NCBI RefSeq assembly: GCF_003790525.1
Contig: NZ_CP033635.1
From: Escherichia coli
GTDB lineage: Bacteria; Pseudomonadota; Gammaproteobacteria; Enterobacterales; Enterobacteriaceae
Reading direction: 5' to 3' (one strand)
Length of the DNA stretch: 64,000 nucleotides
The position numbers are program-made. This document shows, piece after piece, positions 27,001-33,000 of this stretch (the stretch's first letter is position 1; every line of letters starts with the position of its first letter).

Positions 27001-30000
27001 ACCCGGCGTCAATCCGCTGTTTGAAGCGATGATTGAAGCGGGCGTGCAGGCGGGCTACCCGCGCACGGACGATCTCAACGGCTATCAGCAAGAAGGTTTT
27101 GGCCCGATGGATCGCACCGTCACGCCGCATGGCCGTCGCGCCAGCACCGCGCGTGGCTATCTCGATCAGGCCAAATCGCGCTCTAACCTGACCATTCGTA
27201 CTCACGCCATGACCGATCACATCATTTTTGACGGCAAACGCGCGGTGGGCGTCGAGTGGCTGGAAGGCGACAGCACCATTCCGACCCGCGCGGCGGCGAA
27301 TAAAGAAGTGCTGTTATGTGCAGGCGCGATTGCTTCACCGCAGATCCTGCAACGCTCCGGCGTCGGCAACGCTGGACTGCTGGCGGAGTTTGATATTCCG
27401 CTGGTGCATGAATTACCTGGCGTCGGCGAAAATCTTCAGGATCACCTGGAGATGTATCTGCAATATGAGTGCAAAGAACCGGTTTCCCTCTACCCTGCCC
27501 TGCAGTGGTGGAATCAGCCGAAAATCGGTGCGGAGTGGCTGTTTGGCGGCACCGGCATTGGTGCCAGCAACCACTTTGAAGCAGGCGGATTTATTCGCAG
27601 CCGTGAGGAATTTGCGTGGCCGAATATTCAGTACCATTTCCTGCCAGTGGCGATTAACTATAACGGCTCGAACGCAGTGAAAGAGCACGGCTTCCAGTGC
27701 CACGTCGGATCGATGCGCTCGCCAAGCCGTGGGCATGTGCGGATTAAATCCCGCGCCCCGCACCAGCATCCAGCGATTCTGTTTAACTACATGTCGCACG
27801 AGCAGGACTGGCAGGAGTTCCGCGACGCAATTCGCATCACCCGGGAGATCATGCATCAACCGGCGCTGGATCAGTATCGTGGCCGCGAAATCAGCCCCGG
27901 TGTCGAATGCCAGACGGATGAGCAGCTCGATGAGTTTGTGCGTAATCACGCCGAAACCGCCTTCCACCCATGCGGTACGTGCAAAATGGGGTACGACGAG
28001 ATGTCCGTTGTGGATGGCGAAGGCCGCGTGCACGGGCTGGAAGGATTACGCGTAGTCGATGCGTCAATTATGCCGCAGATTATCACCGGCAATCTGAACG
28101 CCACGACGATTATGATTGGCGAGAAAATGGCGGATATGATTCGCGGGAAGGATGCGTTGCCGAGGAGCACGGCGGGATATTATGTGGCAAATGGGATGCC
28201 GGTGAGAGCGAAAAAAATGAGTCGTGATGTGAACTGACTCAGGAACCTATCAGATTGAGAGTTACCGTTCTACTATGAGGACCGAATCCTTATATAAAAC
28301 ACTGAGGTAACTCTCATGCTTCATATCCAGTATTCATGATGCTGGCTTTTTGCTGATATTTAACCCGAACATTCCTGATACAGACTATTAATTCATTTAT
28401 CTGCGGCAGATTTTATTTTCTGGATATATTATGAGTGAACAAATCAAACAGGATATCGATCTGATTGAGATTTTATTTTATCTGAAGAAAAAGGTAGATG
28501 AATACCAACAAAACTCTGGGCAGTAATAAACAGCATTCTGATAGAGAGTGCCTGTATAAAGCTGAAGTGACAATGACCGGGAAGGGAACCCGTTTTCAGG
28601 AATGGATGCCTGTCTTTTTCAATTTAAATATCCTGGCATTAGTAATGCCAGGATATTTACAGAAGAGCAGCATAACCATGACGGAACGGGGTTAAGTCAG
28701 GTTGTCCTAAACGCTATTTTCAACCTCGTATGCCTTCTTCAGGTTTATGTCCAGACTTCATATCTCTCTCAACAATCCTCAATAATCAGATACACCGCTT
28801 TCACCGGGCCATGAACTCCGACGACTTTGATAAGCTCAATATCCGCCGTTGAACTGGGGCCGCTAATGATGTTAATGCAGGAAGGCATTCGTTCACCGGC
28901 CTGCGCTTTCTGATGCAATTTTTCTGCGAGTTGCGCTACACGCGGCAGGATAGTGCTTTTACGCAGGATAAAAAGAGAAGATTCCGGGAGCAGGCTCAAT
29001 GAACGCCCGCGCCCGGCGGCGGAAAAAAGAACCACGCCTCCCGATTCGGTTAAACCATATTCAGCATATACGACGCCCACTTTAGCCTGCTCTGCTTGTG
29101 ATATGTTCTCAATACCTTTCGCCGGATCCCAAACAACGGCATTGCATTCCTGCTGCAAACGTTCGCTAATCCCCAATTCCTCCAGCCTCGTGTCACCGCT
29201 AATCACGATCGACTGATCTCCCAGCTCTTTACACAGACGTATTGCAGCTTCTGCGGCCTGCGCCTCGCTGGTCAGTTCACAGCGCGTCAACATAACATCG
29301 CTGGCAAACTGGATAAACGCGTCACAGCGCTGCTGTTGGTTAAGTTCGGTAAGCCGCTCGTTAGCATAGTTGTTAAGCGGCGCATCTTCTGCTTGCGGTT
29401 CAAGTCGCTGCGGGCGACCCAGTGCCTGAGCAACGTTATTCAAAAATTCGCTCCGATTATCCATTCTTTTTCTCCTGCGCCTGATGTTTCTTAAACCAAC
29501 TACGGAAACTCTCTCCGTCAGCTTCAGGAAGATCGCGTGCTTCCATCCAGTCGCTAATCGCGCCAAATTTGAGTGGTGTTTTGCCGCCATTGATAAACCA
29601 GCTTGCCGCATGAGCGCCGGCCATCATCCCGACTTTCCACAATCCTGGATGACTATTGGCATAAGCGAACATTTTTATCGCCCGTTGCTCTGCTTTTGCG
29701 GTGATCCCTTTTTCAGCCATCACCCGACGATGACGCAAAATCAGTTTTGACAGCGGAATACGCACCGGACACACGCTGTCACAAGCGGTGCATAAAGAGC
29801 AGGCGTAGGGTAAATCTTTAAAATCTTTATAGCCGCCAAGTAGCGGAGAAATCACCGCACCAATTGGCCCTGGATAAATAGAGCCATATCCATGACCGCC
29901 AATATGGCGATATGCCGGACAAGTATTCATACAAGCCCCGCAGCGAATACAGCGCAGCACATCCCGAAATTCAGAGGCCAGCACCTCAGAACGCCCGTTA

Positions 30001-33000
30001 TCGACAATAACCAGATGAAACTCTTCAGGACCATCAACGTGCCCCGCTTCGCGCGGTCCTGTCAGCCAGGTGTTGTATCCCGTCAAACGTGCACCAACGG
30101 CACTGCGCGCCAGCATGGTGATCAATACATCTACCTCGGCAAACGTGGGGGCAATACGCTCCATTCCCATCACTGCAATATGCGTTTTAGGCAGCGTGGT
30201 ACACATTCGCGCATTACCTTCATTGGTCACCAGGCATACCGAACCGGTCTCTGCCACCGCGAAATTACAGCCGGTAATACCTATTTCAGCACTGAGGAAA
30301 TCTTCGCGGATTTTTTGCCGGATGAATAAGGTCATTGCTTCAGGCGTTTCCGACCCCTCATAGCCCAGACGTTCGTGTAGCACCCGACGGATCTGATGGC
30401 GATCTTTATGAATTGCCGGGACCACAACATGAGAGGGCGGATCTTGATCCAGCTGGAGAATGTATTCACCCAGATCGGTTTCAATCACCTGAATGCCAGC
30501 ATCCTGCAACACATGATTGACACCAATCTCTTCGGTCACCATCGATTTAGATTTCACCACCTTCCGGGCATTTTTGCGTTGGGCAACCTGTAAAATGTAG
30601 CGGGTAGCGTCTTCTTTGGTTTTTGCAAAATAGACGTGACCGCCGTTTTGCGTCACTTTTTCTGAGAGCTGGTACAGATAAGCGTCGAGATTACTCAGAA
30701 CATGATCACGTATCTGGGCGGCCCGATCGCGCCACTCCTCCCAGTGCCCCAATTCATCGACCATTTTTTGCCGATTTGCCCCGATACGCTGCTGCGCGTT
30801 TGCCACCGCTTTGCGCATGATCGGATCTTCAATTTGCTGACGGATGCGTGTCTTAAAATCTGTATTACTGGTTTTGATCGACATCTTTATATCCTCAGCG
30901 GCTCATCAACACTTCAGCAATATGCATCACTTTGACTTTCTGCCCTTCCCGTTGTAATCGCCCACTGATGTTCAGCAGGCAACTCACGTCAGCACCTATT
31001 AAATACTCAGGGCGGACTTCCATCAGGTGCGCAACCTTTTCTTGCACCATCTCGCCGGATATTTCGGCCATTTTAACCGAGAACGTGCCGCCAAATCCGC
31101 AGCAGGTATCCTGTTCAGCAAAGGTCAACAGCTCCAGTCCACGCACATTTTTCAGCAGCGTAAGTGGTTCGTCCTTCACCCCCAGCTTACGGGCCAGGCT
31201 ACAAGATGGGTGATACACCGCTCTCCCTTGCAAACTGGCACCTACATCGACTACCCCTAATGTATTAACAATAAAAGAGGTGAGATCCTGCATACGCGCG
31301 GCAACCTTTTCGGCACGTGATGCCCATTCAGGTTCATCCGCCAGATACGTCGGGTAACTTTTTACGGCATAGGTGCAAGAGCCAGCCGGTGAAATAATGG
31401 GATCGTCGTTATCCTCCAGTGCGGCGATCAGATTTTTCATCCCTGGAATCGCTTCTTTGATATAACCACTATTGATCGCAGGCTGACCGCAGCATCCCTG
31501 TTTCTCCGGGAAATTTACGCGACAGCCGAGTTTTTCCAGTAGCAGCACGGAGTCTCGTGCCATTCTTGATTTCAGGGCGTCACCAATACAGGTGACAAAG
31601 AAATTGACATTCACAACTAATACTCCATTACTTCATACCCATTTATGCCCGATGGTTCCCCCCTTCCGGGGGATCAATCATCAATAAATATGGCGTTCTT
31701 TTTTAATTGGCTAGCAACATACCACCCCTCATTTGTATGACAAATGATAATCTTTCATCTAAACTTCAAATGCAATAACTAATTTTATTTCTTTCGGCAT
31801 CGCTCACATTTTATAGGGAAATCGACGATCATTTTTGGCATAAGAAATCCATTTAAAAAGGCTACATCCCTTATACCTATTCAGAGCTACTTATTCAGGG
31901 GTTATTGAGATATACACTGATGGTGTACAAAAAAATCACCGACAATAATCACGTATCAAGTAATAGTCGGGATTTTAGTTAATTGAAGCAATTTAGTTTG
32001 CATTTTTATTTAAAAACTGAACTAGAGTCCATCAAAAAAATATATAAAGCCCAAAACCACCGTTGGAAATAGAAATAGTCGAAAGGCTCACAACTCCCGG
32101 AATGCGGATTATCTTTGCCCCGATTTCTGGCGATTTTATTCAGGGTGCAAGCTGTCTGACCCTTTCCCGATATTCTCCCGGAGTACAACCAAACTCGCGG
32201 ACAAACGCCTTGTGAAAAGATGATTCACTGGCATAGCCTACTGACTCAGCGATCACCACAACAGGGAGCATTTCCCGGGAAAACATCTGGGCCGCTATTT
32301 GTAGACGCAACTTTGTTAATACAGCCAGCGGCGTGGTTCCGGAAACATCGCGGAAAAGCTGGGCAAAACTTGCCCGGGACATGTGGGCGATGCTGGCCAG
32401 CGATTCGACGGTCCAGGCGTGTCCTGGCATTTCCAGCATTTGCTGTATTACCGCACCAAGACGTGGATGCAGAAGCAAACTGAGAATGTTTTTCTCTGTA
32501 TTAACCTGTGCAATCCACTCACGCACCGCGAGGGTAAAGAATGTAGCGCAGATCTGGCTACACAGAGCATCCACTCCCGGCATTGCCGATCTGGATTCCT
32601 GTTGTAAAAACGGGATCGCCTCCCTCAGCCAGTTATATTCCACGCTATGGTTCACTGGTGCTACAAACAGCGTTTCCGGCAAAGACGTTAAAAAATAACG
32701 CGCCGAATGTTGCAGTCGAAGAGTGCCACAGACAATACAGGTCGATTCATTATCGACATGACTCAGGCGATGAGCTGAATTTTGTGGTAGCAGGACCACA
32801 TTTCCCGGGCGTAATGTAAAAATCTCTCCCGTCGGCATTTCCAGCTTCGCCGCTCCTTGCGTTAACGCATGCCAACGAATAACCGACAATTCCCCGGCAC
32901 CATGTGGAAGTTGCCAGTCACTTCCTAACACGCAATTCTTATCGATCGTTCCTTGTGGAGCGTTAAGCATCAACAAACGGCTAAGAGCATCCATATCAGA

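What the first reader, a model, noticed from the sequence alone, without database searches (positions are those of the whole stretch)
28769..32139. lutABC-like ykgEFG operon with a long AT-rich upstream region
The three genes match the LutA (CCG-domain), LutB (4Fe-4S) and LutC (DUF162) roles of Bacillus lactate utilization, with an 8-nt overlap between ykgF and ykgG. The 525-bp upstream region (31615-32139) is strongly AT-rich and lacks an adjacent dedicated regulator or permease, so the physiological substrate and control in E. coli are unclear.
Basis: partly seen in the sequence, partly recalled or inferred. Interest (0 to 1): 0.3.

Follow-up and report, generated by a model that had tools for sequence, protein, structure and literature searches.

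The report
E. coli ykgEFG lactate operon, known
This is the ordinary, already studied E. coli ykgEFG (LutABC-type) L-lactate oxidation operon; its long AT-rich upstream region holds a published YieP-repressed promoter plus the decayed remains of a lost neighbouring lactate-permease gene.

Summary
ykgE (30895-31614), ykgF (29457-30884) and ykgG (28769-29464) lie on the minus strand with an 8-nt ykgF/ykgG overlap. A 525-bp, 35% GC spacer separates ykgE from rclR. Domain content and the LutB/LldF equivalog model confirm a LutABC/LldEFG-type enzyme.

"Substrate and control unclear" is out of date. A ΔykgEFG mutant has an L-lactate-specific fitness defect under nitrate respiration (PMC9701030). Reg-Seq and ChIP-exo/RNA-seq identify the distantly encoded GntR/FadR repressor YieP and an anaerobic activator site at this promoter (PMC7567609, PMC7642389).

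I mapped these onto the window:
- -35 TTGCAT and -10 GATTAT
- YieP operator ATTTGTCATACAAAT (31731-31745) over the inferred start site
- a TGTGA-containing CRP/FNR-type site centred near -61
- a ~126-nt leader with a hairpin

All are invariant across Escherichia and Citrobacter.

New detail: relatives keep a lactate permease beside the operon. E. coli retains only a 25-codon relic of it (32078-32152, plus strand) abutting the rclR stop codon. About 6% of E. coli genomes carry a second, IS-flanked permease-dld-ykgEFG island.

Verdict: real, ordinary, already known. YieP's ligand remains open.

The parts
28769..29464 (-). ykgG (lutC-like), 231 aa, LUD domain
   Evidence: The ATG at 29464 overlaps the ykgF stop by 8 nt.
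29457..30884 (-). ykgF (lutB/lldF-like), 475 aa: LUD domain, two CxxCxxCxxxCP ferredoxin motifs, LutB_C
   Evidence: Pfam. NCBIfam TIGR00273 LutB/LldF equivalog scores 777 bits against a cutoff of 444.8. Motifs CIRCGACMNTCP and CSLCTACDSVCP are read from the translation.
30895..31614 (-). ykgE (lutA/lldE-like), 239 aa, two CCG cysteine-rich domains, GTG start
   Evidence: The GTG start and the upstream GGAG (31623-31626) are invariant in 14 Escherichia/Citrobacter sequences.
31634..31692 (-). Long imperfect hairpin in the inferred 5' leader; apical stem-loop CCCCCGGAAGGGGGG at 31658-31672
   Evidence: Folding of single sequences and a consensus fold of 5 Escherichia sequences with 24 pairs but little covariation. 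z is -1.4 here and -3.4 to -6.3 in other Escherichia species. The K-12 difference falls in the loop. Citrobacter has an unrelated palindrome at the same position. Function unknown.
31731..31745 (-). YieP operator ATTTGTCATACAAAT (6-bp inverted arms, 3-bp spacer), spanning about -5 to +10 of the inferred start site
   Evidence: Exact match to the ChIP-exo motif atTTGTaTGAcaAAT (PMC7642389) and to the Reg-Seq YieP matrix positions 80-94, mapped through the K-12 alignment. It is the only exact match in 64 kb, where 0.004 are expected. Thirteen of its 15 positions are invariant across Escherichia and Citrobacter.
31747..31775 (-). Sigma-70 promoter: -35 TTGCAT (31770-31775), 17-bp spacer, -10 GATTAT (31747-31752); inferred start near 31740, giving a leader of about 126 nt
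   Evidence: Reg-Seq footprint minima at positions 49-53 and 72-78 fall on these hexamers after mapping. Both hexamers are invariant in alignment A2. The start site itself is inferred, not measured.
31790..31811 (-). CRP/FNR-family activator site AAATGTGAGCGATGCCGAAAGA, centred about -61 from the inferred start (class I position)
   Evidence: Reg-Seq annotates an FNR activator at -102..-80 of its reference point. The anaerobic footprint peak lands on the TG of TGTGA. TGTGAGC...CCGAAA.AAATAAA is invariant in 14 sequences. By sequence, the left half-site is CRP-type (TGTGA) and the right half is poor.
31822..32011 (.). AT-rich (32% GC), weakly conserved distal spacer; 31974-32012 is homologous to the region 43-82 bp upstream of the permease start codon in Citrobacter
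   Evidence: blastn and segment alignments. It is 68-75% identical to other Escherichia species. No Rfam hit and no ORF of 60 aa or more inside it.
32012..32077 (.). 66-bp AT-rich junction with no detectable homolog, standing where about 1,060 bp of the permease 5' part lie in Citrobacter
32078..32152 (+). Relic of a lactate permease (LctP family) gene, codons 340-364 only; its last 13 nt overlap the final four codons and stop of rclR on the other strand
   Evidence: tblastn gives 19/25 residues identical to the Citrobacter youngae ykgE-linked permease, E 1.7e-5 against the whole window and 2e-9 pairwise. DNA identity is 52/75 with flanks at 23%. Similarity falls with phylogenetic distance and is at background for E. 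coli LldP and GlcA. Orientation relative to ykgE is the same as in Citrobacter.
32140..32994 (-). rclR, an AraC-family regulator; upstream neighbour and not part of the lactate system
   Evidence: It is not next to ykgE in any other genus or in three other Escherichia species.

Best explanation
The locus is the core-genome E. coli ykgEFG operon. It encodes a three-subunit iron-sulfur L-lactate oxidoreductase of the LutABC/LldEFG type that oxidises L-lactate to pyruvate and passes electrons to the respiratory chain. The 525-bp upstream spacer is a composite. Reading away from ykgE it contains: (1) a leader of about 126 nt with a hairpin; (2) one sigma-70 promoter (TTGCAT-17-GATTAT); (3) an operator for the distantly encoded GntR/FadR-family repressor YieP, lying over the start site and so able to block RNA polymerase; (4) a class-I CRP/FNR-type activator site near -61 that gives anaerobic activation; and (5) about 320 bp of decaying AT-rich DNA ending in a 75-bp fragment of a lactate permease gene. 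That distal part is what remains of a divergent permease/ykgEFG control region still intact in Citrobacter. E. coli therefore lost the operon's own permease. It presumably imports lactate through LldP or GlcA encoded elsewhere, and it controls the operon in trans. Status of the steps: shown here are the gene content, the exact sequence elements, their conservation and the relic. Shown in the literature are YieP binding and repression, the anaerobic footprint and the L-lactate plus nitrate phenotype. Inferred are the start-site position, the steric mode of repression, the uptake route, and a feed-forward loop in which FNR activates the promoter while FnrS lowers YieP.
For: - Genes and domains: (YkgF passes the LutB/LldF equivalog cutoff).
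- Phenotype: ΔykgEFG has a fitness defect only with L-lactate plus nitrate (PMC9701030). Malfoy et al. 2024, as cited in PMC13279387, report that LldD, Dld and YkgEFG oxidise 2,4-dihydroxybutyrate; in that paper a strain lacking all three no longer converts it.
- Control: Reg-Seq footprint, YieP mass spectrometry and ΔyieP data. ChIP-exo motif and about 10-fold derepression in ΔyieP. FnrS represses yieP translation.
- Mapping to the window: K-12 alignment at 98% identity, with no indel between the operator and the start codon; coordinates checked.
- Conservation: -35, -10, 13 of the 15 operator positions (the other two vary), the TGTGA block and the SD/start are invariant in 14 Escherichia/Citrobacter sequences while the surrounding DNA diverges. 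An operator-like motif lies upstream of ykgE in Proteus, Leminorella and Pragia as well; in all 10 loci where a motif with at most 1 mismatch was found (12 loci scanned whole), it is the only such motif in the locus. The same cassette drives dld-ykgEFG in C. gillenii and in the IS-flanked E. coli island.
- Permease loss: a Lactate_perm gene adjoins ykgE in Citrobacter, Pectobacterium, Budviciaceae, Pasteurellaceae and Vibrionaceae. Relic.
Against: - No transcription start site has been measured. Reg-Seq used a computationally predicted reference point, so the -5..+10 and -61 positions are inferred from footprints.
- The activator site has a CRP-type half-site (TGTGA) and no match to TTGAT-N4-ATCAA with 2 mismatches or fewer. 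FNR is therefore the publication's assignment, not something the sequence shows.
- The ykgEFG mutant had no phenotype in mouse colitis models or in anaerobic culture without nitrate, and overexpression did not change lactate titres. The physiological weight of the enzyme is modest or condition-specific.
- No lactate induction has been reported, and YieP's ligand is unknown.
- The relic is only 25 codons. It lies inside a 3.65-kb rcl-containing segment that other Escherichia species lack, so it may have arrived with that segment instead of decaying in place.
Confidence: 0.85

Rival explanations
1. The enzyme's main physiological substrate in E. coli is not L-lactate but another 2- or 3-hydroxy acid (for example 2,4-dihydroxybutyrate, glycolate-like or 3-hydroxypropionate-related compounds). 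On this view the operon belongs to a YieP organic-acid stress regulon and not to a lactate catabolic system.
For: ykgEFG is co-repressed by YieP with yohJK, which are implicated in 3-hydroxypropionate tolerance, and with rydC. YkgEFG is reported, via Malfoy et al. 2024 as cited in PMC13279387, to oxidise 2,4-dihydroxybutyrate. E. coli already has LldD and Dld, and ΔykgEFG has no phenotype in vivo. The dedicated permease has been lost.
Against: The L-lactate-specific, nitrate-dependent fitness defect. YkgF passes the LutB/LldF equivalog model. Close orthologues sit beside lactate permease and dld genes. ΔykgEFG did not change 3-HP tolerance, whereas ΔyohJK did.
Confidence: 0.15
2. The AT-rich spacer is functional in its own right. 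It would be a nucleoid-protein (H-NS, Lrp or Nac) silencing platform, or it would encode an unannotated small RNA or small protein, and would not be decaying leftover DNA.
For: 32-35% GC over about 320 bp. A table in PMC10100675 lists Leu-Lrp as activator and Nac as repressor of ykgE. The stretch is conserved at 95% or more within E. coli. The block 31974-32012 is still recognisably conserved with Citrobacter.
Against: No Rfam family matches at E<=1. No ORF of 60 aa or more lies within it. Promoter and terminator scans are not enriched over shuffles. Identity to other Escherichia species drops to 68-75% or nothing distal to 31821, while the proximal cassette is invariant. Within-species conservation is expected for any E. 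coli core DNA. No paper found links H-NS to ykgE.
Confidence: 0.15
3. The activator at the -61 site is CRP (carbon-source control) and not FNR, or both proteins use it.
For: The invariant half-site is TGTGA, the CRP core, and the 22-mer has CRP spacing. The Reg-Seq anaerobic peak sits on TGTGA. The title of PMC5432575, seen only in a search listing, states that CRP regulates D-lactate oxidation in Shewanella.
Against: Reg-Seq assigns FNR from the growth-condition contrast plus a bioinformatic match. The footprint is much weaker in aerobic arabinose medium. The right half-site is poor for either protein.
Confidence: 0.3
4. The 25-codon 'permease relic' is a chance similarity.
For: It is short. 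Its last 13 nt are also rclR coding sequence. No further permease fragments were detected nearby.
Against: Alignment score is 86, against a maximum of 56 for about 5,100 other 25-aa windows from all six frames of the 64 kb. The homology edges are sharp and the flanks sit at 23% identity. Position and orientation are syntenic. Similarity is graded with phylogeny: 19, 17, 16, 15, 12-13 of 25. Many differences from the Citrobacter gene appear, on inspection of the alignment, to fall at third codon positions (not counted).
Confidence: 0.07

Closest known systems
Bacillus subtilis LutABC (YvfV-YvfW-YvbY) lactate utilisation operon with the GntR-family repressor LutR and permease LutP (own knowledge: Chai et al. 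2009, J Bacteriol)
   Same: Three genes in the same order with the same domains: CCG x2; LUD + 2x[4Fe-4S] + LutB_C; LUD. Both are repressed by a GntR/FadR-type regulator (YieP here). Both have an L-lactate-linked phenotype.
   Different: In E. coli the repressor gene is elsewhere on the chromosome and also controls unrelated genes (yohJK, rydC). No lactate response of the repressor has been shown. The linked permease has been lost apart from a 75-bp relic.
Shewanella oneidensis LldEFG L-lactate dehydrogenase (own knowledge: Pinchuk et al. 2009, PNAS; named as the homologue in PMC9701030)
   Same: Same three-subunit Fe-S enzyme family and stereospecificity for L-lactate. In Shewanella and in most close relatives of ykgEFG the genes lie next to a lactate permease and often dld.
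   Different: The E. coli core copy stands alone between rclR and the ykgH/bet genes. Its control is through YieP and a CRP/FNR-type site.
Citrobacter permease<->ykgEFG and permease<->dld-ykgEFG modules, and the IS-flanked copy of the latter in about 6% of E. coli genomes
   Same: 93-95% identical YkgE/F. An identical promoter cassette (TGTGA site, TTGCAT, -10 hexamer GATTAT in Citrobacter and GAATAT in the IS-flanked E. coli island, and a YieP operator with 1 mismatch).
   Different: These keep an intact LctP-family permease gene transcribed divergently, and in some cases a dld gene between promoter and ykgE. The window keeps only codons 340-364 of the permease.
E. coli LldPRD (lctPRD) L-lactate operon
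   Same: Same substrate and the same logic of a FadR-subfamily GntR regulator (LldR) controlling lactate oxidation. LldP is the likely uptake route for YkgEFG's substrate (inference).
   Different: LldD is an unrelated FMN enzyme. In lldPRD the permease and regulator are encoded in the operon itself. The relic in the window is not derived from lldP or glcA.

Membership tests
LutABC / LldEFG L-lactate oxidation system | Three co-directional, tightly packed genes in the order A (CCG protein), B (Fe-S/LUD protein), C (LUD protein) | tested here: met
   10-nt gap between ykgE and ykgF and 8-nt overlap between ykgF and ykgG.
LutABC / LldEFG L-lactate oxidation system | LutA-type subunit with two cysteine-rich CCG domains | tested here: met
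   PF02754 matched in 2 stretches, E 3.5e-34. Cysteines at C9, C41C42, C80 and C137, C170C171, C211 are read from the translation. No NCBIfam equivalog reaches its cutoff.
LutABC / LldEFG L-lactate oxidation system | LutB-type subunit: LUD domain + two CxxCxxCxxxCP motifs + LutB_C; passes the curated equivalog model | tested here: met
   PF02589, PF13183 and PF11870. TIGR00273 scores 777.3 bits against a cutoff of 444.8.
LutABC / LldEFG L-lactate oxidation system | LutC-type subunit with a LUD (DUF162) domain | tested here: met
   PF02589, E 1.7e-30. No NCBIfam family at E<=1e-10; RefSeq names it LutC/YkgG family.
LutABC / LldEFG L-lactate oxidation system | L-lactate-dependent growth or fitness phenotype of the deletion | not testable with these tools
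   Literature only: ΔykgEFG has a defect with L-lactate plus nitrate and none with D-lactate (PMC9701030).
LutABC / LldEFG L-lactate oxidation system | Genomic linkage to a lactate permease and/or lactate-responsive regulator (typical, not strictly defining) | tested here: not met
   No intact permease or GntR/LysR gene is adjacent; only a 25-codon relic remains. Linkage is present in relatives.
YieP regulon (GntR/FadR-family repressor) | Operator matching atTTGTaTGAcaAAT in the promoter region | tested here: met
   Exact match at 31731-31745, equal to the Reg-Seq matrix optimum.
YieP regulon (GntR/FadR-family repressor) | Derepression on yieP deletion and in vivo/in vitro YieP binding | not testable with these tools
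   Literature: about 10-fold up in ΔyieP and a ChIP-exo peak; DNA-affinity mass spectrometry and loss of the footprint in ΔyieP.
FNR-activated (class I) promoters | Site resembling TTGAT-N4-ATCAA centred near -61.5 or -41.5 | tested here: inconclusive
   The position fits (about -61 from the inferred start), but the sequence is TGTGAGCGATGCCGAA, a CRP-type half-site, and no FNR match with 2 mismatches or fewer exists.
LctP-family lactate permease gene (the relic) | Full-length ORF of about 520-560 aa matching PF02652 / TIGR00795 | tested here: not met
   Only codons 340-364 are recognisable; the rest is absent. The Citrobacter counterpart passes TIGR00795 (401 bits against a cutoff of 341) but not the LldP or GlcA equivalogs.

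The most novel reading that the evidence does not exclude
The chromosomal E. coli ykgEFG operon is an orphaned remnant of an ancestral or mobile permease-(dld)-lutABC lactate module whose promoter/operator cassette is conserved across Enterobacterales. YieP would then be the module's long-missing metabolite-sensing repressor, a functional counterpart of Bacillus LutR, responding to L-lactate or a related 2-hydroxy acid. Through it, lactate availability and anaerobiosis (via FNR and FnrS) would be linked to membrane remodelling by RydC and cfa.
Probability: 0.3. Interest if true: 0.4.

Novelty: already known. Interest (0 to 1): 0.15.

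Why it matters
The finding is textbook-level annotation. The enzyme family, its L-lactate role in E. coli and its main repressor are all published. The follow-up adds a coherent reading of the odd 525-bp spacer. The proximal 200 bp are a conserved control cassette that matches the published footprints base for base. The distal 320 bp are the wreck of a divergent permease gene and its control region. This explains why E. coli's copy has no transporter of its own. It also points to YieP's unknown ligand as the one real open question: identifying it would show when E. coli uses this third lactate dehydrogenase, for instance during nitrate respiration in the inflamed gut.

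Tried and rejected
- Rfam scan of 28000-33300 at E<=1 found nothing.
- The generic promoter scan proposed TTGTCA-16-TATGTT (31743-31716). I rejected it because the Reg-Seq footprint puts the RNA polymerase contacts on TTGCAT/GATTAT upstream of the operator.
- A consensus FNR search (TTGAT-N4-ATCAA) found no site with 2 mismatches or fewer in the spacer.
- Terminator scan found only a weak hairpin (32099-32080) after rclR, and the region folds no better than shuffles.
- RclR as the operon's regulator was rejected. It is not syntenic with ykgE in any other genus or in three other Escherichia species, and no paper links them.
- E. coli lldP or glcA as the source of the relic was rejected, because both score at background.
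- Small ORFs in the spacer: none of 60 aa or more apart from two that overlap the rclR end, one of which is the relic frame.
- PDB sequence search with YkgF matched only the ferredoxin domain of HdrC-type subunits, so no LutB-family structure is found by sequence.
- Counting the operator motif with up to 1 mismatch is not significant on its own (0.37 expected). The case rests on the exact match, the published footprint and cross-genus conservation.
- The paper search for Malfoy 2024 found no held copy; it is cited only through PMC13279387.

Full report
OBSERVATION

The window segment is 100% identical to E. coli SMS-3-5 (NC_010498.1) and is the reverse complement of the K-12 gene order. On the minus strand lie:
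- ykgE, 31614-30895, GTG start, 239 aa
- ykgF, 30884-29457, 475 aa
- ykgG, 29464-28769, 231 aa

The ykgF/ykgG overlap is the 8-nt string ATGGATAA. The spacer 31615-32139 is 525 bp long and ends at the rclR stop codon. Its GC content is 35.4%, against 49.6% for the window. Only 2% of equally long windows are as AT-rich.

IDENTITY OF THE GENES

Pfam finds two CCG domains in YkgE. It finds LUD, a 4Fe-4S dicluster domain and LutB_C in YkgF, and LUD in YkgG. YkgF passes NCBI's LutB/LldF equivalog model (777 bits against a cutoff of 444.8). Two CxxCxxCxxxCP motifs are visible in its translation. By sequence, the PDB holds only HdrC-type ferredoxin relatives. The operon is core genome: the spacer alone is present at 95% identity or more in about 5,040 of 5,426 complete E. 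coli genomes.

WHAT IS ALREADY PUBLISHED

Substrate:
- Taylor et al. 2022 deleted ykgEFG in E. coli MP1. They found a fitness defect with L-lactate plus nitrate under anaerobiosis, none with D-lactate, and none in mouse colitis models (PMC9701030).
- PMC13279387 cites Malfoy 2024 for oxidation of 2,4-dihydroxybutyrate by LldD, Dld and YkgEFG.

Control:
- Reg-Seq dissected the ykgE promoter. It found a repressor site bound by YieP (mass spectrometry, and loss of the footprint in ΔyieP) and an anaerobic activator site assigned to FNR (PMC7567609).
- ChIP-exo and RNA-seq gave the motif atTTGTaTGAcaAAT and about 10-fold derepression of ykgEFG in ΔyieP (PMC7642389).
- YieP is a FadR-subfamily GntR protein with no known ligand, and the FNR-dependent sRNA FnrS represses its translation (PMC11340327).
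- A table in PMC10100675 also lists Leu-Lrp as activator and Nac as repressor of ykgE.

MAPPING THE PUBLISHED DATA ONTO THE WINDOW

K-12 and the window are 98% identical across the spacer, with no indel between the operator and the start codon. I used the Reg-Seq source data: reference point 321511, with the footprint and YieP matrix.
- The RNA-polymerase minima fall on TTGCAT (31775-31770) and GATTAT (31752-31747), which are 17 bp apart.
- The YieP matrix positions coincide with ATTTGTCATACAAAT (31745-31731).
- That operator is the only exact match in the 64 kb, where 0.004 are expected.
- The inferred start is near 31740. The operator then spans about -5 to +10 and the leader is about 126 nt.
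- The anaerobic footprint peaks on the TG of TGTGA (31808-31804). This lies inside AAATGTGAGCGATGCCGAAAGA, centred about -61, which is a class-I position.
- By sequence this is a CRP-type half-site, and no good FNR consensus exists. I regard FNR versus CRP as unsettled.

COMPARATIVE EVIDENCE

A YkgE-based scan of one genome per species returned 72 loci. In a 14-sequence Escherichia/Citrobacter alignment, the TGTGA block, the -35 and -10 hexamers, 13 of the 15 operator positions, the Shine-Dalgarno sequence and the GTG are invariant, while the DNA between them diverges.

An operator-like motif also lies upstream of ykgE in Proteus, Leminorella and Pragia. In all 10 loci where a motif with at most 1 mismatch was found (12 loci scanned whole), it is the only such motif in about 12.7 kb (7 kb for Proteus).

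The leader carries a long hairpin at 31692-31634 with apical stem-loop CCCCCGGAAGGGGGG. It is predicted in all five Escherichia sequences, with 24 consensus pairs but little covariation. Citrobacter has an unrelated palindrome at the same place. Its function is unknown.

WHY THE SPACER IS LONG AND WHY THERE IS NO PERMEASE

In most relatives a Lactate_perm (PF02652) gene adjoins ykgE.
- It is co-directional in Pectobacterium, Budviciaceae, Pasteurellaceae and Vibrionaceae.
- It is divergent in Citrobacter, across a spacer of 536-580 bp.
- C. gillenii has dld between promoter and ykgE, and Vibrio has a LysR gene downstream.

tblastn with these permeases hits one place in the window, 32078-32152 on the plus strand. 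There, 19 of 25 residues match codons 340-364 of the Citrobacter protein (E 1.7e-5 against the window).
- DNA identity is 52/75, with flanks at background.
- Similarity falls with phylogenetic distance and is at background for E. coli LldP and GlcA.
- The block 31974-32012 matches the region 43-82 bp upstream of the Citrobacter permease start codon.
- 32020-32077 has no detectable homolog.

So about 1,060 bp of the permease 5' part are gone. The distal spacer is what remains of a divergent control region plus a gene fragment whose last 13 nt now also encode the end of rclR.

The segment 32012-35663 (rclC, rclB, rclA, rclR and the relic) is absent from E. whittamii and two other Escherichia species, where an aldo/keto reductase gene directly precedes the spacer. 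I cannot tell whether the permease decayed in place or whether the relic arrived with the rcl segment.

Separately, 313 of 5,426 E. coli genomes carry a full permease at 93.5% DNA identity to Citrobacter. In the one example inspected (strain S43) it lies in an IS-flanked permease<->dld-ykgEFG island; other copies are on plasmids. That island has the same promoter cassette upstream of dld.

MECHANISM

Shown in the literature or established for the family: YkgEFG oxidises L-lactate and feeds electrons to respiration.

Inferred here: YieP bound over the start site keeps the operon off. Under anaerobiosis a CRP/FNR-family activator at -61 stimulates the promoter while FnrS lowers YieP, giving a coherent feed-forward loop that fits the nitrate-respiration phenotype. 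Lactate enters through LldP or GlcA.

Unknown: YieP's ligand, and whether lactate induces the operon.

VERDICT

This is a real, correctly described and already known system, so interest is low. The permease relic, the conserved control cassette and the IS-flanked complete island are modest additions. The open point worth an experiment is YieP's effector.

Noticed in passing
window 32012-35663: The whole rclC-rclB-rclA-rclR block, together with the permease relic, is a 3.65-kb presence/absence difference. E. whittamii and two other Escherichia species go straight from the aldo/keto reductase gene (window 35664-36681) to the ykgE spacer.
   Followed up: partly
window 28431-28523 (gap 28238-28768): ykgH, a 222-aa gene in K-12 between ykgG and betA, is internally deleted here by about 565 bp. 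Only about 22 N-terminal and about 22 C-terminal codons remain, and RefSeq annotates fragments as hypothetical or pseudo.
   Followed up: partly
window 28625-28662: A 38-bp inverted repeat (…ATATCCTGGCATTAGTAATGCCAGGATAT…) lies 107-144 nt downstream of the ykgG stop and is also present in K-12. It may be a bidirectional terminator for ykgEFG and ykgH; the terminator scan did not flag it.
   Followed up: no
L077 (E. coli S43, NZ_CP010237.1 827731-843295): A second, complete lactate island (L-lactate permease <-> dld-ykgE'-ykgF'-ykgG') flanked by IS1 and an IS5-like ISKpn26. A homologous full-length permease is found in 313 of 5,426 E. coli genomes, with 94 of the matching places on plasmids, at about 93.5% DNA identity to Citrobacter.
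   Followed up: partly
L003-L005, downstream of ykgG (corresponds to window ~22260-28320): In the three non-coli Escherichia species, homology jumps from the ykgG end or the betA 3' remnant to window ~22300. The betA-betB-betI-betT cluster therefore appears to be missing there.
   Followed up: no
L026 4730-5905 (Kosakonia arachidis; same arrangement in Phytobacter and other Kosakonia loci): A cyclopropane-fatty-acid synthase (CMAS, PF02353) gene sits directly upstream of ykgE and points the same way. This is curious because YieP also controls cfa through RydC in E. coli.
   Followed up: no
L010 ~5925-5946 and other Citrobacter loci (alignment A2, columns ~427-452): A perfect 22-bp palindrome GCTTGATATCGCGATATCAAGC occupies the leader position where Escherichia has the CCCCC/GGGGG hairpin. 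It could be an RNA hairpin or a protein-binding site.
   Followed up: partly
L025 5814-5828, L031 5819-5833 (Leminorella, Pragia): A YieP-type operator (ATTTGTAATACAAAT) overlaps the stop codon of the co-directional permease gene just upstream of ykgE. This implies an internal, separately controlled promoter for ykgEFG in Budviciaceae.
   Followed up: no
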